Below are positions 53,829-63,879 of a stretch of 64,000 bases of DNA, one piece after another. The notes under the pieces were generated by a model. It saw only the letters and a program-made list of their open reading frames with translations, did not search any database and was not told the DNA's origin. Location: sequence record KX130863; one strand, 5' to 3'. The stretch's first letter is position 1. The number at the start of each line of letters is the position of its first letter. The stretch comes from Shigella phage SHSML-45. A program made the translations under genes and the position numbers.

Positions 53829-54239
53829 ATGACTACTCCAACTCAGTGGACTGATGAACTGTTCGAAAAAATGTCTTCCGAATACGTTGCTCGTATGGAG
53901 CAATTCCCAGAGGATGAACGTCCGGGTGTTAGCATGGAAATTGTTAGCGAAATTGCCCAGGAAAATGGTGTAACTCCGAACGGTTTTCGTATGAAGCTGA
54001 CTAAAGCAGGTTTGTATATCAAGAAAGCTGCTGGCTCTGCTTCTAAATCTAGCGCATCTACTGGAGAAAAAGCTTCTGGTGGTTCTCGTACTTCCAAAGC
54101 CCAAGCTCATGCCGATCTTCGTTCAGCATTCTCTGATGCTGGCCTAGCACCAGATTTTCTGGATGATGCAATTATCGACAAACTGACCGGTAAAGCAGCT
54201 GCTCATCTGGCAGAAGCAATCCGAGCTATCACTAAGTAA
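53829..54239 (+). CDS. hypothetical protein (136 aa)
   Basis: ORF with AAGGAAA RBS. Confidence 0.6.
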   Translation: MTTPTQWTDELFEKMSSEYVARMEQFPEDERPGVSMEIVSEIAQENGVTPNGFRMKLTKAGLYIKKAAGSASKSSASTGEKASGGSRTSKAQAHADLRSAFSDAGLAPDFLDDAIIDKLTGKAAAHLAEAIRAITK

Positions 54240-55018: not shown

Positions 55019-55990
55019 ATGACTAATGTAAAAGAATTTATTAAACGCTGTCAAGAAGCATATTATCAGGGTATGTCTTTAATCTCTGATGAGGAGTATG
55101 ATTGCCTGGTAAAACGCTTCCCGTTAGAAGAAGAGATCGGGCCTAAGGGTGATATTCCACACCTATATCGTATGTATTCTTTACAGAAAGTTTATTATAA
55201 CCGTGGGGATAAATCACCATTTAATCCTTTAGGTCAGGTAGAAACTGATAAGTTAGATGGTTGTGCAATTTCTCTGCTATATATTAACGGTGAATTTGTT
55301 CAAGCATTAACCCGTGGTAATGGTATTCTGGGAAATGATGTCACAAGCAACGTAAGATTGCTGAACATCCCTAAAAAGATTTCCCAAAAAGTACCTACTC
55401 AAATCACTGGTGAAGTTCTAATTACAAAAGAAGTAGAAAATAAACGTAACTTTGCCTCTGGTGCTATTAACCTCAAAGATAGTGATGCTTTCATACAACG
55501 CATTGGAGAAGGCGGTTTAATCTTTGTTGCTTATGGTATCCAATGTTCTGCTGAAGCTGTAGGTATTACAGAAGCATACTTAAAAGATATGCTTTGGCTA
55601 GAGAATGAGAACTTCTTAACAGTTGTTAATGTGCGTTCCTTCTTTAAATGGATTCCGACGGACGGTAAAGTTGTTCGTATTAATGACAACAACAAATTCT
55701 TCCGTGAGGGCTGGACAAATAAATTCCCTCGTGGAGCATTCGCCATTAAAGAGGATGAAGAAGGCGAGATTACAACTCTTACTAAAGTTGAATGGCAGGT
55801 AGGGGCTTCTGGTAAAGTAACTCCAGTTGGTTATTTCGAACCGGTAATTATTGATGATGCTACGATTGTTAAAGCGACTCTTAATAACGTTGATTATATT
55901 AACTCTCTCGATCTAGAGATCGGTTGCCAGATTCGAGTGATTCGTGCCGGTGGTGTAATCCCGTGCATAGTAGAGCGAGTATACGATTAA
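55019..55990 (+). CDS. NAD-dependent DNA ligase, N-terminal adenylation/OB fragment
   Basis: LigA-like N-terminus (EEYDCLV) and KxDG adenylation motif (KLDG). Confidence 0.75.
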   Translation: MTNVKEFIKRCQEAYYQGMSLISDEEYDCLVKRFPLEEEIGPKGDIPHLYRMYSLQKVYYNRGDKSPFNPLGQVETDKLDGCAISLLYINGEFVQALTRGNGILGNDVTSNVRLLNIPKKISQKVPTQITGEVLITKEVENKRNFASGAINLKDSDAFIQRIGEGGLIFVAYGIQCSAEAVGITEAYLKDMLWLENENFLTVVNVRSFFKWIPTDGKVVRINDNNKFFREGWTNKFPRGAFAIKEDEEGEITTLTKVEWQVGASGKVTPVGYFEPVIIDDATIVKATLNNVDYINSLDLEIGCQIRVIRAGGVIPCIVERVYD

Positions 55991-56040
55991 TACATAACCC
56001 TTTGCTACCCATCTACCATATCGGAATTATAAAGTGGTTA

Positions 56041-56069
56041 TTGACATTTTCGCCGCTTAGGTATATACT
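56041..56069 (+). promoter_or_regulatory. sigma70-type promoter (TTGACA-N17-TATACT) in the ligase spacer
   Basis: Near-consensus hexamers. Confidence 0.55.
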
Positions 56070-56133
56070 ATTATCATTCAGTTGAGGGATAGAAAGTTAT
56101 GGCGAGGGTAAGCAAAGTTAGTTAAAATTGTAG

Positions 56134-56162
56134 TTGCTAAATGCTTAAATACTTGCTATAAT
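56134..56162 (+). promoter_or_regulatory. sigma70-type early promoter (TTGCTA-N17-TATAAT) in the ligase spacer
   Basis: Consensus hexamers plus leader ATTTATATAAATTGATAAGGAAG. Confidence 0.55.
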
Positions 56163-56192
56163 ATTTATATAAATTGATAAGGAAGAAATTTG

Positions 56193-56972
56193 ATGAAAAT
56201 CGAAATTCCAACACAATGTCCCTCTTGTGGTTCTAAGCTCGATCTTGTCAACGGACAATTATTCTGTCGTAATAAGTCCAACTGTCCAGCTCAATCAAGT
56301 AAGTTAATTGAGAACTTCTGTACAAAAATGAAGTTAAAGGGTTTTGGCCCGAAAACTATTGAGAAGCTGGAGCTGACGAAGATTTCAGAACTATTTTACC
56401 TAACCGAAGAAGATTTGGTTAGAGCCGTGGGTAGCAAGGTTGCCGCTAAGTTAATTAGCGAATTAAATACTAAAGTTCGCGGAGACATTGACTTTGGTTC
56501 AGTTCTCGGTTCTTTAGGAATCCCTCTAATTGGAGAGGTTGCAGCAAAGAAATTGTCCCAAAATTGCACCAGTTTTCAAGATGTGAGAGCTGATGGCAAA
56601 GCTGGAGAAAATTATAAAGCCTGGCTAAATTCCCCACAAGGCAAGGATGTTATCGAATTACCGTGGAAATTCACAACTGGTATTAAAGGTGCTAAAGCTG
56701 AGGTCATCATCACTGATGGTCTAGTAGCCCAACCAAACGGAATAACGGTATGTATTACCGGATCTTTGCAAGATTTTGCAAATAGAACGGATGCAACAAA
56801 CTATTTAGAAGGTCTAGGATATACGGTTAAGAAATCCGTTACCAAAGACGTCAAATACCTAATCTGTGAGGATGAATCGAAGCGTTCTTCCTCATCTTAT
56901 AAGAAAGCCGAAACGAATGGGATAGAAATCCTGTCGATTAAAGAACTATTGGAGAAAAATAATAATGTCTAA
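56193..56972 (+). CDS. NAD-dependent DNA ligase, C-terminal fragment (Zn finger, HhH, BRCT-like)
   Basis: CPSCGSKL..CRNKSNCPAQ zinc finger at N-terminus; start taken at ATG 3 nt inside the track ORF. Confidence 0.7.
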   Translation: MKIEIPTQCPSCGSKLDLVNGQLFCRNKSNCPAQSSKLIENFCTKMKLKGFGPKTIEKLELTKISELFYLTEEDLVRAVGSKVAAKLISELNTKVRGDIDFGSVLGSLGIPLIGEVAAKKLSQNCTSFQDVRADGKAGENYKAWLNSPQGKDVIELPWKFTTGIKGAKAEVIITDGLVAQPNGITVCITGSLQDFANRTDATNYLEGLGYTVKKSVTKDVKYLICEDESKRSSSSYKKAETNGIEILSIKELLEKNNNV

Positions 56973-57732
56973 ACTGAACTGGAACGTAGAAGGTGTAACC
57001 GAGTCTCTGAAAGCAAAAGCCACTGCTCTGGGTGTTGCTGTAATCTCTCAAGAACAAGTAGCTGCTATCGCTGCTGAACTAGCTGCTGAAACTGGCAAAG
57101 ACGTTACTGCTCGCTCTGTTGGCTCTAAGCTGCGTAAAGAAGGTTTCGAAGTACAGAAAGCTAACGAAGTACAGAAATCCCCGTGGACTCCTGAGCAGGA
57201 AGCTGAACTGGTTGATTTCCTGAACGCTCATGCTGGTCAGTATACCTATGCTGAAATCGCTGCTGCTGTAGCTGGTGGTCAGTTCGGTGCTAAACAGGTA
57301 CAGGGTAAGATCCTGAGTCTGGAAATGACCGCTTCTGTTAAGCCAACCGAAAAAGCTGCTGCTGTTCGTTCCTTCACTCCGGATGAAGAAACTGATTTTG
57401 TTAATCAGGTTGTTGCTGGTGCTACTATTGAAGCTATCGCTGCTCACTTCGGTCGCAATATTAAGCAGATCCGTGGTAAAGCTCTGAGTCTGCTTCGTGA
57501 AGGTCGTATTGCTGCTATGCCGGTACAGGAAACTTCAAGTGCTAAAACTCGTGAAGATCTGTTAGAAGGTCTGGATCTGGTTAACATGACTGTTGCTGAG
57601 ATCGCTGAGAAAACTGGTAAGTCTGAGCGTGGTGTTAAATCTATGCTGTCTCGTCGTGGTCTGGTTGCTAAGGACTATGATGGTGCCGCTAAGCGTGCTA
57701 AACTGGATGCAAAAGCTGCGGCTGCTGTATAA
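56965..57732 (+). CDS. Ala-rich DNA-binding-like protein with four tandem HTH-like repeats
   Basis: Four ~60-aa repeats each with an I-A-x-x-x-G..R-G-K/V..L-S segment. Confidence 0.55.
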   Translation: MSKLNWNVEGVTESLKAKATALGVAVISQEQVAAIAAELAAETGKDVTARSVGSKLRKEGFEVQKANEVQKSPWTPEQEAELVDFLNAHAGQYTYAEIAAAVAGGQFGAKQVQGKILSLEMTASVKPTEKAAAVRSFTPDEETDFVNQVVAGATIEAIAAHFGRNIKQIRGKALSLLREGRIAAMPVQETSSAKTREDLLEGLDLVNMTVAEIAEKTGKSERGVKSMLSRRGLVAKDYDGAAKRAKLDAKAAAAV

Positions 57733-57791
57733 TTAGAAGGCAGATAAGGAGAACTTCGGTTCTCCTTTCTTGTATATTAGAAGGCTACATA

Positions 57792-58373
57792 ATGGGGGAG
57801 ATTACCCAGCAGTATCTTAAAACATTATTAAGATATGAGCCTGATACTGGAAATTTTTACTGGCTACCTAGAGAAAATAATCCTGCGTTCAATGCTAAGC
57901 ACGCTAACAAACCTGCAGGCTATATGCATTCATCAGGCTATATTTATATAAAGATAACCTTAGAGTCAGGTATACAAAAATCTATGGGAGCACATAGGTG
58001 GGCCTTTCTATATATGGAAGGAGAAATCCCTGACAAGGTTGATCATAAAAATAGAATTAAAACTGATAATACTTGGAATAACTTACGTGAAGTTACTTCC
58101 TCTCAAAATTCCGCTAATAGCTTTATAGGTAACAAGCTAGGCATTCGTAACATAGAAGTAACAAAAAATAACACATTTAAAGTAACCATATCTAAAAACT
58201 CCAAAGTATTTAGAAAAACCCTAAAAACTCTAGGAGAAGCTCTGTGGTATAGAGATAAGCTGCTTTTAGCCTTGTACGGAGATTTCGCAGCCCTAGATGC
58301 TCTAGATATAGAGAGGGTTAAACCGCAGAATATAGTGGATAACTTTACAGAGGAGTTGCTAGATAATGTTTAA
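57792..58373 (+). CDS. HNH homing endonuclease
   Basis: AHRWAFLYMEGEIPDKVDHKNRIKTDNTWNNLRE motif. Confidence 0.8.
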   Translation: MGEITQQYLKTLLRYEPDTGNFYWLPRENNPAFNAKHANKPAGYMHSSGYIYIKITLESGIQKSMGAHRWAFLYMEGEIPDKVDHKNRIKTDNTWNNLREVTSSQNSANSFIGNKLGIRNIEVTKNNTFKVTISKNSKVFRKTLKTLGEALWYRDKLLLALYGDFAALDALDIERVKPQNIVDNFTEELLDNV

Positions 58374-59832
58374 CGTGCAAGCTGTAGTGTTGAAGATGCT
58401 TCTAGCTTCCGAACAGAAGCAAATAGCATTGGAAACATTCTCAAAACTGCATAAAGATCATTTTAATGACGCTTTCTCCTCAATTTACCAAGCCGTCCAG
58501 AATTATTATAAAAAATATAACACAATGCCGTCCATTGACGCACTGATGCTTGAGGCTAATAGGAACGCCCGCCTTTCTCAAGCTCTAGTCGTCTTAGCTA
58601 ACACTCAAATTCCAGAAGTGAGCATGGAACAGGCACTTGAAGTCCTAGAAGCCGAATATACACAGGATTTATTCCTGAAGCTTCTAGAAACAGACGTGCT
58701 TCAAGATTTAACAATGCTGGATCAGGGAGAAATTCTCAACCGAGTTGCCTCCCTTCACTTAAAATTAGAAGAGAAAGTAACGAATACTGGAAAAGTATTC
58801 AACGCAGACACAATGCGTATTTTCCAGAGAGAAGAAGATACCAAACTGAACTTGATCGCTCTTGGTATTTGTAATGAGTTCGACGCTCAAATTGGTTTAG
58901 CTCGCACAGAAACGTTACTGCTTGGTGGTTGGCGTGGTACTGGTAAATCCATTATCTGTTCAAACATACAGGTTCAGCAATATTTGAATGGAGATATTGC
59001 TCCATACTTCTCAATTGAGATGAAAGAACATGAAGTATTTAGACGTAATCTAGCCATGTTAGCTGGTGTATCAGCACTAGCAATGCGTAATAATACTCTA
59101 GAAGGTGCAGCTCTGTTGAGATTAGCCAGAACTAGAGCTAGGATGTTTAATGGTGGTGAAGAGCTTTTCGATAACTTCGTTAAACAGTACACAATGGCTA
59201 AGATGAGTGATTTCTACGATATGGAAAGTAAGCTAATAGAAGGGTATGAACTACATACTCCTATGATTATTGTTTATGATCCTGAGCTGTCTATTACAAC
59301 AGTTGACGTAGAATTAAATAAATTAGTTGCTAGATATGGGGATAAAGTTACAGTAGCTTTACTGGACTATATTAACCAAACCCGACTTCCAGACTCTAAA
59401 ACCATTGATATGTATGACTGGAAAGAACAGATGGTTGTTAGCTCGTCTTTCAAATCTATCTGCCAGAAACATAACGTGGCTGGTGTAGCTCCTTACCAGA
59501 TTGATCAAGATGGTAGAACACGTATGTCAAAAGGGATTCTTGATTCCGCAGACATGGCTGCTAATCTTAATGCTGCAAAAGCTGATAATGGTCAAGGTGC
59601 TATTATGTTTGACTTCGTTAAGACCCGTTCTTCTGATAGCGTGAAGTTTATGCCTAAAATGAACTGGGAAACCCTGCGGATGGATAACACTACCAACCTA
59701 GCAATGGAAGATATATCTCAAATGGAAGCTGAGTTCGTTATCCCTATTGAGAAGGATAAGCCAGCTCAATCTAAACGTGCTAAGAAAGACAAAGCTGAAA
59801 ATTCAACAGGTGAACAGGCCAGCGATATATGA
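58366..59832 (+). CDS. DnaB-like replicative DNA helicase
   Basis: Walker A GGWRGTGKS and RecA-like core; 488 aa. Confidence 0.65.
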   Translation: MFNVQAVVLKMLLASEQKQIALETFSKLHKDHFNDAFSSIYQAVQNYYKKYNTMPSIDALMLEANRNARLSQALVVLANTQIPEVSMEQALEVLEAEYTQDLFLKLLETDVLQDLTMLDQGEILNRVASLHLKLEEKVTNTGKVFNADTMRIFQREEDTKLNLIALGICNEFDAQIGLARTETLLLGGWRGTGKSIICSNIQVQQYLNGDIAPYFSIEMKEHEVFRRNLAMLAGVSALAMRNNTLEGAALLRLARTRARMFNGGEELFDNFVKQYTMAKMSDFYDMESKLIEGYELHTPMIIVYDPELSITTVDVELNKLVARYGDKVTVALLDYINQTRLPDSKTIDMYDWKEQMVVSSSFKSICQKHNVAGVAPYQIDQDGRTRMSKGILDSADMAANLNAAKADNGQGAIMFDFVKTRSSDSVKFMPKMNWETLRMDNTTNLAMEDISQMEAEFVIPIEKDKPAQSKRAKKDKAENSTGEQASDI

Positions 59833-60362
59833 TAACACAGGAACGACTAAAAGAACTGTTTGACTACTCCCCAGAGACTGGGGAGTTTATTAGAAAAGTA
59901 TCTAGAGGCAACCAGAAAGCCGGGAGTATAGTAACTAGAAAGGATTCAAACGGTTATATAATTATCGGTATAGATGGTAGGGATTATAAAGCCCATCGTA
60001 TGGCCTTCCTATTTATGGAAAACACGTTACCTGAAAAAGTAGACCATATAAACCGTATACGAAGTGATAATCGATGGTGTAATCTAAGAGACGCCACAGC
60101 CCAGGAAAATAGTAGAAATAAAACCGCATGTAGTAAGTCTGGATATTTGGGAGTTGCTTGGGATATAGAAAAACAAAGATGGAGAGTTCAAGTAAGAGAC
60201 TCTAATAGCACTCTTAAAAATGGTGGCAGATTTAAGTATGAAGAGCTAGAGCTAGCTGTAAATTCAGCAAATATATTAAGGACTAAGTTACATGGAGAAC
60301 GTGCTGTTATAGAATTTTTTGATACATCTAATTATCCTTCACTGGAGGAGTTAAATTCATGA
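59829..60362 (+). CDS. HNH homing endonuclease between helicase and primase
   Basis: MITQERLKELFDYSPETGEF N-terminus and AHRMAFLFMENTLPEKVDHINRIRSDNRWCNLRD motif. Confidence 0.8.
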   Translation: MITQERLKELFDYSPETGEFIRKVSRGNQKAGSIVTRKDSNGYIIIGIDGRDYKAHRMAFLFMENTLPEKVDHINRIRSDNRWCNLRDATAQENSRNKTACSKSGYLGVAWDIEKQRWRVQVRDSNSTLKNGGRFKYEELELAVNSANILRTKLHGERAVIEFFDTSNYPSLEELNS

Positions 60363-61249
60363 GTAGAATAACAGAGTTACTTGATCTAAAAGGAATTGAG
60401 TACAAGGATACAGGCGGGGATATTCTTATATGCTGCCTGAATCCTGAACACGAGGATAAACACCCAAGTTTGCGTATTGATCCTGAAACCGGGATTATGC
60501 ACTGCTTGAGTTGCGGTTTTGGCAAAGGTATACCTAGTATTTATCATTATTTTAATGAGACTCAATATAGACAATCTCCAAGACTATCCCAAGTACGTAA
60601 AAAAATTTCTGAGATTAGAAATGGATCTACGAATCTTGCAATCCCAGAATCTGCTTTTCTTTTTGAAGGTGATTTCCGAGGTATCAGTTCTAAGACCTTA
60701 AAGAAATATTTTGCTTTCCAACACCAAGAGGACTGGGAAGGCAGAATTGTATTCCCAATCACAGATGCTGTTGGACGCAATATCCTATTTTTGGGTCGTT
60801 CTATAAACAGTTCTGCCCCTCCTAAATACTTAGTAAAACCAAAACAAGTTTCACCACCAATTTTTCCTGTACGATATAATACTCCAGTTCTTATTCTAGT
60901 TGAAGGCATCTTTGATATGCTGAACCTAGAGGATAATGGTATAGACTATGCTTCTTGCTGCTTTGGTACACATCAGTTTACTTCGGATAACATTGCTGAT
61001 AAGTTCAGTCCTTACATTATTGCTGGAGTAAGAGTAGTTGTTATCTTGCTAGATAATGATGCCTCTGGTAATAAAGCTGCTCAAGCACTAGCGAAGCTAA
61101 TTCGTACAAAAACACGTTTAACACCTGTAGTTGGTAACTTCCTTCTTCCAGAAGGTAAAGACCCAGGTGATTTAAATAAAGAAGAGATCGATATGTTGGC
61201 TCAACGTATTGAAATTTTAGTTGCCGAATCGCTCAAAGATTTGGTATAA
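60359..61249 (+). CDS. DnaG-like DNA primase
   Basis: Zinc-binding CC..H..H-x19-C-x2-C near N-terminus; Toprim-like EGIFD and DNDASG motifs. Confidence 0.75.
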   Translation: MSRITELLDLKGIEYKDTGGDILICCLNPEHEDKHPSLRIDPETGIMHCLSCGFGKGIPSIYHYFNETQYRQSPRLSQVRKKISEIRNGSTNLAIPESAFLFEGDFRGISSKTLKKYFAFQHQEDWEGRIVFPITDAVGRNILFLGRSINSSAPPKYLVKPKQVSPPIFPVRYNTPVLILVEGIFDMLNLEDNGIDYASCCFGTHQFTSDNIADKFSPYIIAGVRVVVILLDNDASGNKAAQALAKLIRTKTRLTPVVGNFLLPEGKDPGDLNKEEIDMLAQRIEILVAESLKDLV

Positions 61250-61311: not shown

Positions 61312-63879
61312 TTGAAAATTGCAGTAGTTGATAAAGCTCTAAATAACACTCGTTATGATAAACACTTCCAGCTTTATGGTGAGGAAGTTGATGTATTCCA
61401 TATGTGTAACGAGAAGTTATCTGGTCGTTTGCTGAAAAAGCATATTACAATCGGAACTCCAGATAACCCGTTCGATCCGAACGATTACGATTTTGTTGTG
61501 CTAGTTGGTGCTGAACCTTTCCTGTATTTCGCAGGTAAGAAAGGTATCGGTGATTATACTGGTAAACGTGTAGAGCATGGCGGCTATGCCAACTGGATTG
61601 CAAGTATTAGTCCAGCTCAGCTACACTTTAAACCTGAAATGAAACCAGTTTTCGATGCTACTGTTGAAAGTATTCACGACATTATTAATGGTCGTGAGAA
61701 GATTGCAAAAGCTGGTGATTATCGTCCTATTACTGATCCAGACGAAGCTGAAGAATACATCAAGATGGTGTATAACATGGTTATCGGACCTATCGCATTC
61801 GACTCCGAAACCTCAGCTCTGTATGCTCGTGATGGTTATCTTCTTGGTGTTTCTATGTCTCACCAAGAGTATCAGGGTGTATATATCGATTCTGACAGCA
61901 TCACCGAAGTAGCTGTACATTATCTCCAGAAAATTCTGGATAGCAAGAATCATCAGATCGTTTTTCATAACTTGAAGTTCGATATGCACTTTTATTCCTA
62001 TCATCTAGGACTTTCCTTTGAGAAAGCGCATAAAGAGCGTAGACTTCACGATACCATGTTGCAGCACTATGTTCTAGATGAACGTCGTGGTACTCATGGC
62101 TTGAAATCTCTAGCAATGAAGTATACCGATATGGGTGACTATGACTTCGAACTAGATAAGTTCAAGGATGATTATTGCAAGGCACATAAGATCAAAAAAG
62201 AGGATTTCAGCTATGATCTGATTCCTTTTGATATTATGTGGCCATATGCTGCAAAAGATACCGATGCTACTATACGTTTACATAACTTCTTCTTACCAAA
62301 AATTGAGAAGAACGAAAAACTTTGTAGTCTGTACTACGATGTTTTGATGCCTGGTTGCGTATTCTTGCAACGTGTTGAGGATCGTGGAGTACCTATCTCT
62401 ATTGATCGCTTGAAAGAAGCTCAGTATCAGTTGACACATCGATTAAATATGGCTCGTGAGAAGCTGTACACTTATCCAGAAGTCGTTCAGCTGGAGAAGG
62501 ATCAGAACGAAGCGTTTAACCCGAACTCTGTTAAGCAACTCCGTGTTCTTCTGTTTGATTATGTTGGTTTGACTCCAACTGGTAAACTGACGGATACAGG
62601 TGCAGATTCTACAAATGCAGAAGCTCTGAATGAACTGGCTACGCAGCATCCAATTGCTAAAACTCTGCTAGAGATTCGTAAGCTGACTAAGCTGATTTCT
62701 ACTTATGTTGAGAAGATTCTTCTGAGCATCGATGCAGATGGTTGCATTCGTACAGGTTTCCACGAACACATGACTACTTCTGGTCGTCTGAGTTCTTCTG
62801 GTAAGCTGAACCTGCAACAGTTACCACGTGATGAATCTATTATCAAGGGTTGTGTAGTTGCACCACCTGGATACCGTGTAATCGCGTGGGACTTAACAAC
62901 TGCGGAAGTTTATTATGCTGCTGTTCTATCTGGTGATAGAAATATGCAACAAGTATTTATCAACATGAGAAATGAACCTGATAAATACCCTGACTTCCAC
63001 TCTAACATCGCACACATGGTATTTAAATTGCAATGTGAACCCCGTGATGTTAAGAAGCTGTTCCCAGCTCTGCGTCAGGCTGCTAAGGCAATTACCTTTG
63101 GTATTTTGTATGGTTCTGGCCCAGCGAAAGTAGCTCATTCTGTTAACGAAGCTCTTCTGGAACAGGCTGCTAAGACAGGCGAACCGTTTGTTGAATGTAC
63201 CGTTGCAGATGCGAAGGACTATATCGAAACTTACTTCGGTCAGTTCCCTCAGCTTAAGCGTTGGATTGATAAGTGCCACGATCAGATCAAGAACTTTGGA
63301 TTCATCTATAGTCACTTTGGTCGTAAGCGTCGTCTGCACAACATCCATTCCGAAGATCGTGGTGTTCAGGGTGAAGAAATCCGTTCTGGATTTAACGCAA
63401 TCATTCAGTCTGCATCTTCTGATAGCCTGTTGTTAGGTGCTATTGATGCTGATGAAGAAATCCTGTCACTGGGTCTAGGAAAAGAGATGAAGATCGTCAT
63501 GTTGGTTCACGACTCCGTGGTTGCCATTGTACGTGAAGATCTGATCGATCAGTATAACGAGATTCTGATTCGTAACATCCAGAAGGATCGTGGTATTAGT
63601 ATCCCTGGCTGCCCAATCGGTATTGATTCTGATTCTGAGAAAGGTGGTTCTCGCGACTACTCTTGTGGTAAGATGAAGAAACAGCACCCATCAATCGCTT
63701 GTATTGATGATGATGAATATACTCGTTATGTTAAGGGTGTATTACTCGATGCAGATTTCGAGTATAAGAAGTTAGCTGCAATGGATAAAGAGCATCCAGA
63801 CCACAGCAAGTACAAGGATGATAAGTTTATTGCTGTATGTAAAGATTTGGATAATGTAAGAAGGATTCTCGGTGCTTAA
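61312..63879 (+). CDS. DNA polymerase, family A with 3-prime to 5-prime exonuclease
   Basis: 855 aa, TTG start with AAGGAG RBS; exo motif FDSETSAL; polymerase motifs KAITFGILYG and VHDS. Confidence 0.9.
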   Translation: MKIAVVDKALNNTRYDKHFQLYGEEVDVFHMCNEKLSGRLLKKHITIGTPDNPFDPNDYDFVVLVGAEPFLYFAGKKGIGDYTGKRVEHGGYANWIASISPAQLHFKPEMKPVFDATVESIHDIINGREKIAKAGDYRPITDPDEAEEYIKMVYNMVIGPIAFDSETSALYARDGYLLGVSMSHQEYQGVYIDSDSITEVAVHYLQKILDSKNHQIVFHNLKFDMHFYSYHLGLSFEKAHKERRLHDTMLQHYVLDERRGTHGLKSLAMKYTDMGDYDFELDKFKDDYCKAHKIKKEDFSYDLIPFDIMWPYAAKDTDATIRLHNFFLPKIEKNEKLCSLYYDVLMPGCVFLQRVEDRGVPISIDRLKEAQYQLTHRLNMAREKLYTYPEVVQLEKDQNEAFNPNSVKQLRVLLFDYVGLTPTGKLTDTGADSTNAEALNELATQHPIAKTLLEIRKLTKLISTYVEKILLSIDADGCIRTGFHEHMTTSGRLSSSGKLNLQQLPRDESIIKGCVVAPPGYRVIAWDLTTAEVYYAAVLSGDRNMQQVFINMRNEPDKYPDFHSNIAHMVFKLQCEPRDVKKLFPALRQAAKAITFGILYGSGPAKVAHSVNEALLEQAAKTGEPFVECTVADAKDYIETYFGQFPQLKRWIDKCHDQIKNFGFIYSHFGRKRRLHNIHSEDRGVQGEEIRSGFNAIIQSASSDSLLLGAIDADEEILSLGLGKEMKIVMLVHDSVVAIVREDLIDQYNEILIRNIQKDRGISIPGCPIGIDSDSEKGGSRDYSCGKMKKQHPSIACIDDDEYTRYVKGVLLDADFEYKKLAAMDKEHPDHSKYKDDKFIAVCKDLDNVRRILGA

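What the first reader, a model, noticed from the sequence alone, without database searches (positions are those of the whole stretch)
56965..57732. Four tandem HTH-like repeats in an Ala-rich 255-aa protein
The product contains four ~60-aa repeats each with an (A/Y)(A/E)(E/I)IA..(T/F)G(K/R)..(R/K)..(G/S)K.L motif resembling sigma region 4 or LuxR-type helices. It sits immediately upstream of the helicase-primase-polymerase cluster, consistent with a cooperative DNA-binding or replication/transcription switch protein.
Basis: inference. Interest (0 to 1): 0.45.

Follow-up and report, generated by a model that had tools for sequence, protein, structure and literature searches.

The report
Phage T5 D5 DNA-binding protein

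Summary
The ORF at 56965..57732 (+) is real. It encodes a 255-aa, 17.6%-Ala protein identical at 253 of 254 aligned residues to bacteriophage T5 gene D5 protein (T5.118). RefSeq annotates T5.118 as a DNA-binding protein required for DNA replication and late transcription.

The four-repeat observation holds:
- R2 and R3 are clearly homologous (profile-profile probability 96%, E 3e-9).
- R1 and R4 are divergent but linked to the others (E about 1e-4).
- Each of the four segments hits HTH families on its own across 31 homologues.
- AlphaFold2 (pLDDT 91) gives three three-helix bundles, a two-helix HTH and a basic C-terminal helix.

In every repeat helix 3 is the most conserved and most basic element. 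GcrA's phosphate-contact positions are kept; its base-reading positions are not.

The gene has the strongest host-optimal codon bias of 73 ORFs in the window. It lies downstream of the T5 P28b/P28a promoters and upstream of a terminator-like hairpin.

Best reading: an abundant, multivalent, largely sequence-independent dsDNA-coating protein of the replication module. Already known; low novelty.

The parts
56041..56069 (+). Sigma-70 promoter (T5 early promoter P-K28b) upstream of ligB-D5
   Evidence: TTGACA-17-TATACT, 11/12 matches. The region is 100% identical to T5, where the promoter is annotated.
56134..56162 (+). Sigma-70 promoter (T5 early promoter P-K28a), extended -10
   Evidence: TTGCTA-17-TATAAT with an upstream TG. 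Identical to the T5 annotated promoter.
56965..57732 (+). D5 gene: 255-aa DNA-binding protein. Its start overlaps the ligB stop by 8 nt.
   Evidence: ORF. 253/254 aligned residues identical to T5 D5. PHROG 323 'D5-like', E 1.3e-71. 98-99% nt identity to more than 400 Tequintavirus genomes.
56980..57174 (+). Repeat R1 (aa 6-70): three-helix HTH with a small beta-bridge after helix 3. Basic helix 3 is A49-K58 (R50, K55, R57 invariant).
   Evidence: AF2 helices 11-22, 29-43, 49-58. HTH_33 in 10/31 and Tc3 HTH in 9/31 homologues. hhalign to GcrA DBD 57%, E 1.1e-4. Helix charge and conservation.
57175..57363 (+). Repeat R2 (aa 71-133): Myb/GcrA-like three-helix HTH starting at W74. Helix 3 is A109-S118 (Q113, G114, K115, L117 invariant).
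   Evidence: AF2 helices 76-88, 95-101, 109-118. Myb_DNA-bind_6 in 16/31 and GcrA in 5/31 homologues. R2-R3 hhalign 96%, E 3.3e-9.
57364..57534 (+). Repeat R3 (aa 134-190): Myb/GcrA-like three-helix HTH starting at F137. Helix 3 is I166-R178 (G171, K172, L174, S175 invariant). It is followed by a conserved linker (P186, Q188 invariant).
   Evidence: AF2 helices 139-150, 155-162, 166-178. HTH_23 in 16/31 homologues. hhalign to GcrA DBD 81%, E 1.2e-5.
57535..57681 (+). Repeat R4 (aa 191-239): sigma-region-4-like HTH lacking helix 1. Helix 3 is E221-R231 (G223, L228, R230, R231 invariant), followed by a short beta hairpin.
   Evidence: AF2 helices 210-217 and 221-231. Sigma70_r4_2 E 1.1e-6 for the full-length protein, and a hit in 23/31 homologues.
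57682..57729 (+). Basic C-terminal helix (aa 240-255, net charge +3; D237, G240, A241, K246 nearly invariant). Role unknown; a candidate protein-protein or DNA contact for cooperative binding.
   Evidence: AF2 helix 240-254. Conservation and charge. The proposed role is inference.
57746..57777 (+). Intrinsic-terminator-like hairpin (9-bp stem, TTCG loop) plus a T-rich tail, 14 nt after the D5 stop
   Evidence: Terminator scan. T5 has a different hairpin plus T-run at the same place. Function not tested.

Best explanation
The ORF is the orthologue of bacteriophage T5 gene D5, with one substitution (A25 here, D25 in T5). D5 is the abundant early double-stranded-DNA-binding protein of T5-like phages.

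Architecture. It is a 27-kDa monomer made of four tandem helix-turn-helix modules plus a basic C-terminal helix. R1-R3 are three-helix GcrA/Myb/sigma-4-like bundles. R4 is a two-helix sigma-4-like HTH.

Proposed mechanism (inferred). Each module places its conserved basic third helix in a major groove and holds the DNA mainly through backbone contacts. One molecule therefore grips several successive grooves with little sequence preference. Because it is made in very large amounts from the strong early promoters P28b/P28a, it coats phage DNA. The coat is proposed to do two things:
- restrict access of RNA polymerase and DNA polymerase to duplex DNA and nicks;
- thereby contribute to early-gene shut-off, the turn-on of late genes, and productive replication.

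Shown here: identity, architecture, conservation pattern, expression signals, and synteny with the replisome genes.

Taken from annotation and literature: DNA binding, the requirement for replication and late transcription, abundance, and the monomeric state.

Inferred only: the groove-by-groove binding mode, its sequence independence, and how coating produces the transcription switch.
For: Identity
- 253/254 aligned residues identical to T5.118.
- PHROG 323, E 1.3e-71.
- The RefSeq note reads 'DNA-binding protein; required for DNA replication and late transcription; also involved in shutoff...'.

Architecture
- AF2 pLDDT 91.2 with pTM only 0.45, i.e. confident domains with uncertain mutual orientation.
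- Each repeat hits HTH families across 31 homologues.
- All four repeats align in one register to the GcrA DBD.

DNA-contact logic
- Helix 3 of every repeat is the most conserved element (0.72-0.88) and carries +2 to +4 charge. Helices 1-2 are acidic.
- GcrA's phosphate-contact positions are kept. The aromatic at W3 is present in 31/31 (R1), 31/31 (R2) and 31/31 (R3) homologues. Lys at K39 is 31/31 in R1-R3. Ser/Thr at S20 is 29-30/31 in R1, R2 and R4.
- GcrA's base-reading residues R33, N34, I37 and H41 are not kept.

Abundance
- Fop 0.83, the highest of 73 ORFs (median 0.45, sd 0.09), with 40/45 Ala as GCT and 16/19 Leu as CTG.
- The gene lies behind two near-consensus promoters identical to T5 P28b/P28a and before a terminator-like hairpin.
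- D5 is 'very abundant in lysates' of T5 and BF23 (PMC10644984).

Monomer, nucleic-acid binding and toxicity when over-expressed
- Mass photometry gives 26 kDa; D5 binds retron msDNA; D5 is toxic alone (bioRxiv 10.64898/2026.07.11.737809).

Replisome association
- The order PC4-ligA-ligB-D5-DnaB-primase-PolA-DEAD helicase is conserved at about 50% identity.

Own knowledge, not verifiable in the held library
- Rice et al. 1979 (J Biol Chem) and Fujimura & Roop 1983 (J Virol) reported cooperative, preferential binding of purified gpD5 to duplex DNA and inhibition of T5 polymerase on nicked duplex.
Against: - No DNA-binding data were produced here. The binding mode, footprint and lack of sequence specificity are inferred.
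- Helix-3 residues are strongly conserved within each repeat (R50, R57, Q113, R170, R222, R230). This would also fit reading of a specific sequence or DNA feature.
- The alignments of R2 and R4 to GcrA are weak (31% and 10% probability), so the contact-position mapping for those repeats is tentative.
- R4 lacks helix 1 and may not bind DNA like the others.
- Net charge is only +1 (pI 7.8), which is low for a pure coating protein.
- A T5 retron escaper was reported with a W74* stop in D5. That is hard to reconcile with an indispensable role.
- How a general coat would distinguish early from late promoters is unexplained. The T5 switch mechanism is stated to be unknown (PMC7472727 abstract).
Confidence: 0.7

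Rival explanations
1. D5 is a classical sequence-specific transcription factor or sigma-like specificity subunit. Its HTH modules read defined elements at T5 late (or early) promoters and recruit or block sigma-70 RNA polymerase there. The replication defect of D5 mutants would be secondary.
For: - Many genome records name it 'putative transcription factor D5'.
- R4 passes the Pfam Sigma70_r4_2 threshold.
- The closest solved domain, the GcrA DBD, belongs to a sigma-70-associated activator.
- Helix-3 residues are nearly invariant within each repeat.
- D5 is needed for late transcription.
Against: - Extreme codon optimisation and a lysate abundance comparable to major structural proteins are atypical of a site-specific regulator.
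- There is no sigma region 2 and no RNAP-binding domain.
- The GcrA sigma-interacting CCCH zinc domain is absent, and the protein has no Cys at all.
- GcrA's base-reading residues are not conserved.
- NCBIfam sigma-70 models score far below threshold.
- The older biochemistry (own knowledge) describes non-specific cooperative duplex binding.
Confidence: 0.15
2. D5 is primarily a replisome accessory factor. It coats duplex DNA next to the natural T5 nicks and at forks, prevents futile strand displacement and exonuclease attack by the T5 polymerase, and organises replication. Its effects on gene expression are indirect consequences of failed replication.
For: - Placement inside the ligase-helicase-primase-polymerase block is conserved across distant relatives.
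- D5 is required for DNA replication.
- Own knowledge: gpD5 inhibits T5 polymerase on nicked duplex but not on primed single strands (Fujimura & Roop 1983).
Against: - The title of McCorquodale 1979 and the RefSeq note list late-gene expression and early shut-off as separate D5 phenotypes.
- Nothing found here indicates a polymerase- or helicase-interaction motif.
- This rival overlaps heavily with the best explanation and differs only in which role is primary.
Confidence: 0.2
3. The main selective role of the D5 coat is protective. It would shield phage DNA from host nucleases and defence systems, or act as a decoy for nucleic-acid-sensing defences. Replication and transcription phenotypes would be by-products.
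For: - The protein is abundant and DNA-coating.
- D5 interacts with a defence system's DNA sensor (retron-Kva2 msDNA).
- T5-like phages are notably refractory to restriction (topic of PMC10644984).
Against: - In the retron case D5 triggers the defence rather than blocking it.
- The BF23 study did not link D5 to restriction evasion, and found it absent from virions, so it cannot protect incoming DNA.
- D5 is an early, second-step-transfer gene, expressed after the DNA has entered.
Confidence: 0.07
4. The 'repeats' are a by-product of alanine-rich, helix-prone composition and not true modules.
For: R1-R2 and R1-R3 show no significant similarity in the single sequence. Ala is 17.6%.
Against: - Composition-preserving shuffles are exceeded for R2-R3 (z 8.1), and profile-profile E is 3e-9.
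- Four independent sets of HTH Pfam hits.
- Confident AF2 domains.
- All four units align in register to one solved 49-aa domain.
- A five-unit natural variant carries an extra R2 copy.
Confidence: 0.01

Closest known systems
Bacteriophage T5 gene D5 protein (T5.118, YP_006946.1; PHROG 323 'transcriptional regulator, D5-like')
   Same: Same protein: 253/254 aligned residues identical, same 255-aa length, same position after ligB, same upstream promoters.
   Different: One substitution (A25 vs D25). The intergenic sequence downstream differs, and this phage has an HNH endonuclease gene inserted before the helicase.
Caulobacter crescentus GcrA DNA-binding domain (PDB 5yiu/5yiv; Pfam PF07750)
   Different: GcrA has one DBD plus a linker and a CCCH zinc sigma-70-interacting domain, and it reads methylated GANTC. 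D5 has four modules, no Cys, no sigma-interacting domain, and does not keep GcrA's base-reading residues. The Pfam GcrA model is not matched by the window protein.
Sigma-70 region 4 (Pfam PF08281/PF04545)
   Same: R4 scores just above the PF08281 threshold, and does so in 23/31 homologues. The GcrA DBD, the best fold match, is itself reported as sigma-4-like.
   Different: There is no sigma region 2 or 3 and no core-binding determinants. NCBIfam sigma-70 models are far below threshold. Only the HTH part (profile positions 23-49 of 54) is matched.
Tandem tri-helical HTH arrays: Myb R1R2R3, SNAPc4 Myb repeats, Tc3/paired bipartite domains, Timeless DNA-binding repeats
   Same: Several three-helix HTH units are joined by short linkers, each able to occupy a major groove. 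All appear among the fold hits (1mbe, 1mbg, 9fso_W, 7xur_A, 1u78_A, 6taz_B). R2 and R3 begin with the Myb-like aromatic-T-x-E-E motif.
   Different: Those are sequence-specific eukaryotic or transposase factors. Myb's three regularly spaced Trp residues are absent, and Pfam Myb scores are below threshold. No full-length structural match exists (best Foldseek E 0.1).
Phage phi29 protein p6 (functional analogue; own knowledge, review PMC4974454 listed)
   Same: An abundant early viral protein that coats double-stranded DNA cooperatively and is needed both for replication and for the early-to-late transcription switch.
   Different: Unrelated fold and size. p6 is a small protein (about 12 kDa) that is not an HTH protein and binds through the minor groove as multimers. 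There is no sequence or structural similarity to D5.

Membership tests
T5 D5 protein family (PHROG 323) | Full-length sequence homology to T5 gpD5 | tested here: met
   253/254 aligned residues identical. PHROG 323 E 1.3e-71 over residues 1-253.
T5 D5 protein family (PHROG 323) | Location in the early replication module between ligB and the DnaB-like helicase | tested here: met
   Order ligA-ligB-D5-(HNH)-helicase-(HNH)-primase-polymerase in the window. Same order in T5, DT571/2 and marine relatives.
T5 D5 protein family (PHROG 323) | Very high expression as an early protein | tested here: met
   This is a proxy test only. Fop 0.83 is the top of 73 ORFs. Promoters are identical to T5 P28b/a. 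Direct observation of abundance is for T5/BF23 in PMC10644984.
T5 D5 protein family (PHROG 323) | Cooperative binding to double-stranded DNA; requirement for replication and late transcription | not testable with these tools
   Taken from the RefSeq note, the title of McCorquodale 1979 and own knowledge of the 1979-83 biochemistry.
Helix-turn-helix DNA-binding domains (tri-helical class) | Three-helix bundle with helix 2-turn-helix 3 and a basic recognition helix, in each of the four units | tested here: met
   AF2 pLDDT 91, HTH fold hits, and basic, conserved helix 3 in all four units. R4 has only helices 2 and 3.
Sigma-70 family sigma factor | Region 4 HTH above the Pfam threshold | tested here: met
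   PF08281 scores 28.7 bits against a cutoff of 25.7, at residues 204-230.
Sigma-70 family sigma factor | Region 2 (core binding, -10 recognition) present | tested here: not met
   No Sigma70_r2 hit at E up to 10. TIGR02937 scores 12.6 bits against a cutoff of 42.9.
GcrA (PF07750) | N-terminal DBD fold | tested here: met
GcrA (PF07750) | Sequence match to the family model | tested here: not met
   No PF07750 hit for the window protein at E up to 10. Only 5/31 R2 segments match, best E 0.005.
GcrA (PF07750) | C-terminal CCCH zinc sigma-70-interacting domain | tested here: not met
   The protein contains no cysteine. The feature is defined in PMC5887438.
LuxR/GerE-type HTH (PF00196) | Four-helix GerE domain matched by the family model | tested here: not met
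   No GerE hit for the full protein. Only 3/31 R3 and 1/31 R4 segments match, at E of 0.028 or above. The units have three helices. There is fold-level resemblance only (3c3w_B, 1l3l_A).
Myb/SANT (PF00249) | Score above threshold; three spaced Trp residues | tested here: not met

The most novel reading that the evidence does not exclude
D5 may be a viral 'chromatin' protein built from four GcrA-type modules, and not a passive coat. Like GcrA, it could read a state of the DNA rather than a sequence. That state might be the natural T5 nicks, the replicated versus unreplicated condition, or methylation. Reading it would license late transcription by sigma-70 RNA polymerase and mark phage DNA for the replisome. 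The variable repeat number (four to five units) would tune the footprint. If so, D5 would be the missing early-to-late switch factor of T5 and a new class of DNA-state-sensing tandem-HTH array.
Probability: 0.1. Interest if true: 0.6.

Novelty: already known. Interest (0 to 1): 0.2.

Why it matters
The gene is the well-known T5 D5 gene, so finding it adds nothing new. It only confirms that the window is a Tequintavirus replication module.

What may be useful is the explicit domain map, which I did not find stated in the literature searched. The 2026 retron preprint speaks only of 'a helix-turn-helix motif' and 'conserved HTH regions'. The map consists of:
- four tandem HTH modules, GcrA/sigma-4-like;
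- a conserved basic helix 3 in each;
- conserved linkers;
- a basic C-terminal helix.

This map gives concrete residues (K55, K115, K172, R230, the C-terminal helix) for dissecting two questions. First, how an abundant DNA-coating protein contributes to the still unexplained T5 early-to-late transcription switch. Second, why D5 is sensed by retron-Kva2.

Tried and rejected
- Per-repeat profile searches against PDB sequences gave only weak, generic hits: designed engrailed homeodomain E 8e-4 for R1; TraR E 0.03 and RcsB E 0.14 for R3; nothing useful for R2 or R4.
- Foldseek of the whole model against the PDB gave no significant match (best E 0.1), as expected for loosely connected small domains.
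- The afdb50 library was unavailable.
- NCBIfam has no model for the protein.
- Tandem Repeats Finder found no DNA-level repeat.
- The primary D5 papers of 1979-83 are not in the held library. Several full-text searches for their content found nothing further.
- The DRT4 'phage DNA-binding protein' paper concerns T5 ORF55, not D5.
- Considered and rejected:
  - a sigma factor: no region 2;
  - a GcrA family member: no sigma-interacting zinc domain, no Cys;
  - a LuxR-type regulator: three-helix units, no GerE match;
  - the antisense ORF 57079-57447 as a gene: it mirrors the GCT-rich codons;
  - a compositional artefact: shuffles are exceeded.
- The five-repeat variant P0122 rests on one 1.2-kb contig of coverage 3, so I treat it as suggestive only.
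Full report
**Observation**

An ATG lies at 56965 and a TAA stop at 57730-57732, on the + strand, giving 255 aa. The start overlaps the end of the preceding ligB ORF by 8 nt. The product is 17.6% alanine, has no cysteine, weighs 27.0 kDa and has pI 7.8.

I split the protein into four units: R1 (aa 6-70), R2 (71-133), R3 (134-190) and R4 (191-239). Local alignment scores were compared with 500 composition-preserving shuffles.

| Pair | z | Shuffles reaching the score |
|---|---|---|
| R2-R3 | 8.1 | 0/500 |
| R1-R4 | 3.5 | 3/500 |
| R2-R4 | 3.2 | 5/500 |
| R3-R4 | 3.1 | 6/500 |
| R1-R3 | 1.3 | 51/500 |
| R1-R2 | 0.2 | 202/500 |

Profile-profile comparison used sub-alignments of 31 homologues at 50-80% identity (alignment A1; comparisons).

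| Pair | Probability | E-value |
|---|---|---|
| R2-R3 | 96% | 3.3e-9 |
| R3-R4 | 56% | 1.1e-4 |
| R1-R4 | 48% | 1.8e-4 |
| R1-R2 | 0.6% | 0.092 |

The four-repeat statement is therefore true in a qualified sense. There is one clear duplicate pair, and two divergent units linked to it through a chain of weak similarities. There is no repeat at the DNA level, so the duplications are old.

**Each unit is an HTH**

Scanning each unit of all 31 homologues against Pfam gives helix-turn-helix families in every case.

| Unit | Main Pfam families (homologues hit, of 31) |
|---|---|
| R1 | HTH_33 (10), Tc3-type HTH (9) |
| R2 | Myb_DNA-bind_6 (16), Myb_DNA-binding (8), GcrA (5) |
| R3 | HTH_23 (16), EutK_C (8), Myb (7), Sigma70_r4_2 (6) |
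| R4 | Sigma70_r4_2 (23), Sigma70_r4 (12) |

For the window protein itself, only Sigma70_r4_2 passes its threshold (28.7 vs 25.7 bits, residues 204-230).

AlphaFold2 on alignment A1 gives mean pLDDT 91.2 but pTM 0.45. The domains are confident and their mutual arrangement is not. The predicted helices are:

- R1: 11-22, 29-43, 49-58
- R2: 76-88, 95-101, 109-118
- R3: 139-150, 155-162, 166-178
- R4: 210-217, 221-231
- C-terminal helix: 240-254

R1-R3 are thus three-helix bundles. R4 has only the helix-turn-helix pair. A separate helix closes the protein.

No full-length structural equivalent exists in the PDB (best Foldseek E 0.1). Among predicted viral structures, the only strong full-length match is another D5 protein, from Vibrio phage vB_ValS_X1 (E 5.5e-27). 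A second, unnamed entry (A0A4Y1PW69) follows at E 3.5e-17 over 198 columns.

**A common template**

I took the GcrA sequence from the PDB (7ye1_G). All four D5 unit profiles align to the 49-residue GcrA domain over its whole length and in one register.

| Unit | Probability | E-value |
|---|---|---|
| R3 | 81% | 1.2e-5 |
| R1 | 57% | 1.1e-4 |
| R2 | 31% | 5.3e-4 |
| R4 | 10% | 3.3e-3 |

The authors of the GcrA-DNA structure report two relevant points (PMC5887438). First, the domain is closest to sigma region 4. Second, it contacts phosphates through W3, S20, T32, K39 and R42 among others, and reads bases through R33, N34, I37, H41 and R42.

I mapped these positions onto the 31-sequence D5 alignment.

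- The aromatic at the W3 position is kept in R1-R3 (W 31/31; W 30 plus F 1; Y 23 plus F 8).
- The Ser/Thr helix-2 cap at the S20 position is kept in R1, R2 and R4 (29-30/31).
- The lysine at the K39 position is invariant in R1, R2 and R3.
- The base-reading positions carry other residues, although these are conserved within each repeat.

In every unit, helix 3 is the most conserved element (0.72-0.88 mean column identity) and carries +2 to +4 charge. Helices 1 and 2 are acidic. Linker lengths are nearly constant across the family, and several linker residues are invariant (R135, P186, Q188).

The R2 and R4 alignments to GcrA are weak, so their position mapping is tentative.

**Identity**

The DNA is 98-99% identical to more than 400 T5-like (Tequintavirus) genomes. 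There the gene is annotated 'D5 protein/DNA-binding protein', 'putative transcription factor D5' or 'hypothetical protein'. PHROGs assigns it to family 323, 'transcriptional regulator, D5-like' (E 1.3e-71).

Against the T5 reference genome, the protein is identical at 253 of 254 aligned residues, the difference being A25 here versus D25 in T5. The RefSeq note for T5.118 reads 'DNA-binding protein; required for DNA replication and late transcription; also is involved in shutoff of expression of ...'. The founding paper is cited in PMC12630848 as McCorquodale et al. [quoted passage not shown] The paper itself is not in the held library.

From my own knowledge, unverified here:

- Rice et al. 1979 (J Biol Chem) purified gpD5 as a roughly 29-kDa protein that binds duplex DNA cooperatively.
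- Fujimura and Roop 1983 (J Virol) showed that it inhibits T5 DNA polymerase on nicked duplex DNA.

**Recent literature**

A July 2026 preprint (10.64898/2026.07.11.737809) identifies T5 D5 as the trigger of the type IX retron-Kva2. It describes the following:

- D5 has 255 residues, is monomeric (26 kDa by mass photometry), contains an HTH and is mildly toxic alone.
- It is predicted to bind the retron msDNA stem-loop by mimicking the retron's winged-helix protein.
- Escaper mutations are G53D, W74*, V149I and G232D.

All four mutated positions exist with the same residues in the window protein. G53, W74 and G232 are nearly invariant in the family.

The BF23 study found D5 'very abundant in lysates' of T5 and BF23, but absent from purified BF23 virions (PMC10644984).

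**Expression signals and context**

D5 has the most host-optimal codon usage of all 73 ORFs of 100 aa or more in the window. Its Fop is 0.83, against a median of 0.45 and sd of 0.09. Codon choices include 40/45 Ala as GCT, 16/19 Leu as CTG and 12/12 Arg as CGT/CGC. Its GC content is 47%, against 38.7% for the window.

Two near-consensus sigma-70 promoters lie upstream of ligB, at 56041-56069 and 56134-56162. That region is 100% identical to T5, where they are annotated as promoters P-K28b and P-K28a. A terminator-like hairpin with a T-rich tail follows the stop codon (57746-57777). T5 has a different hairpin plus T-run at the same place.

The neighbours are:

| Coordinates | Feature |
|---|---|
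| 55019-55990 | ligA (adenylation and OB domains) |
| 56190-56972 | ligB (BRCT) |
| 57792-58373 | HNH endonuclease, absent at this position in T5 and DT571/2 |
| 58366-59832 | DnaB-like helicase |
| 59829-60362 | second HNH gene |
| 60359-61249 | ORF at the position of the T5 primase gene |
| 61312-63879 | ORF at the position of the T5 DNA polymerase gene |

The last two assignments are by position and collinearity with the annotated T5 and DT571/2 records, not by a domain search here.

The order PC4-like protein, ligA, ligB, D5, DnaB, primase, PolA, DEAD helicase is kept in marine relatives whose D5 is only about 50% identical.

**Family breadth**

A profile search of 1.84 billion cluster representatives found 496 proteins at E up to 0.001 and 76 at E up to 1e-30. 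About 55 of the listed hits are full-length proteins of 233-262 aa. This is a narrow, phage-restricted family.

- One variant (P0122, 309 aa) has five units through an extra, diverged R2 copy. It follows a ligB-like C-terminus. It rests on a single short, low-coverage contig.
- P0195 and P0197 have five HTH units in a different arrangement.
- Weaker hits are generic long HTH arrays: Myb x6-7, HTH_7 x about 11, and GerE plus HTH_23 x4-5. Tandem arrays of this kind of module therefore recur elsewhere.

**Mechanism**

The evidence fits an abundant, monomeric, multivalent duplex-DNA-binding protein.

- Four modules each present a conserved basic helix.
- They retain the backbone-contact residues of the best structural template, but not its base-reading ones.
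- The modules are joined by linkers of fixed length.
- The protein is produced at very high level from strong early promoters inside the replisome operon.

I infer that one molecule occupies several successive major grooves with little sequence preference and that many molecules coat phage DNA. I further infer that the coat limits the access of RNA polymerase and of the strand-displacing T5 polymerase to duplex DNA and nicks. This would account for the three phenotypes in the annotation: no replication, no early shut-off and no late transcription.

The binding mode, the lack of specificity and the link from coating to promoter-class switching are all inference. The mechanism of the T5 temporal switch is stated to be unknown (PMC7472727 abstract).

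Against a pure coat model:

- the net charge is near neutral;
- the strong conservation of helix-3 side chains could equally serve recognition of a specific feature;
- an escaper carrying W74* has been reported.

**Comparison with known families**

The protein is a member of the T5 D5 family by every testable criterion.

- It is not a sigma factor: there is no region 2.
- It is not a GcrA family member: the family model is not matched, there is no zinc sigma-interacting domain and there is no Cys.
- It is not a LuxR/GerE regulator: the units have three helices and there is no GerE match.
- It is not a Myb protein: the score is below threshold.

At the level of a single module it works like these HTH domains. 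At the level of the whole protein it resembles tandem HTH arrays such as Myb repeats or bipartite transposase domains. Functionally it recalls the unrelated phi29 protein p6 (own knowledge).

**Verdict**

The only modest addition is the explicit four-module, GcrA/sigma-4-like domain map with candidate DNA-contact residues. Novelty: already known. Interest: low (0.2).

Noticed in passing
window 57792-58373 (+) and 59829-60362 (+): Two HNH_3 homing-endonuclease-like ORFs flank the DnaB-like helicase gene. The first, between D5 and the helicase, is absent at this position in T5 and DT571/2, and the intergenic sequence after D5 differs from T5. The second corresponds to T5 hegJ.
   Followed up: partly
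window 53829-54239 (+): A 136-aa ORF at the position of T5 gene D3 has the second-highest host-optimal codon usage in the window (Fop 0.71) and no Pfam hit. T5 annotates D3 as a DNA-binding protein, and D3 mutations appeared in a retron-Kva2 escaper.
   Followed up: no
window 55019-55990 and 56190-56972 (+), gap 55991-56189: The NAD-dependent DNA ligase is split into two genes: adenylation plus OB domains, and HhH plus BRCT domains. They are separated by about 200 bp carrying two strong promoters (T5 P28b/P28a). ligB and D5 can therefore be transcribed separately from ligA.
   Followed up: partly
window 57079-57447 (-): A 122-aa antisense ORF inside D5 is Ser/Phe-rich. It is the mirror image of the GCT/GAA-rich D5 codons and most likely not a gene.
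   Followed up: partly
L006 99-1028 (P0122); L007 86-955 (P0195): These are D5-family variants with five HTH units. P0122 has an extra, diverged R2 copy and follows a ligB-like C-terminus. P0195 and P0197 have two R3-like units plus two further HTHs. Both loci are short, single metagenomic contigs (P0122's has coverage 3), so they need confirmation.
   Followed up: partly
proteins P0251, P0258, P0265, P0257, P0245: Long proteins with 5 to about 11 tandem HTH units (Myb-type, HTH_7/HTH_23-type, or a GerE domain followed by 4-5 HTH_23 units) match the D5 R3 profile repeatedly. Their origin and function were not examined.
   Followed up: no
literature, T5 D5 residues G53, W74, V149, G232 (window 57121-57123, 57184-57186, 57409-57411, 57658-57660): The retron-Kva2 preprint reports a viable T5 escaper carrying a premature stop at W74 of D5 together with three missense changes. 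This is odd for a gene defined by conditional-lethal amber mutants. The changes may come from a mixed population or point to conditional dispensability.
   Followed up: no
literature on D5 orthologues: The Yersinia phage phiR2-01 proteome lists D5 among the major virion-associated proteins. The BF23 study finds D5 abundant in lysates but absent from purified virions. The likeliest explanation is carry-over of a very abundant DNA-binding protein, but this is unresolved.
   Followed up: no
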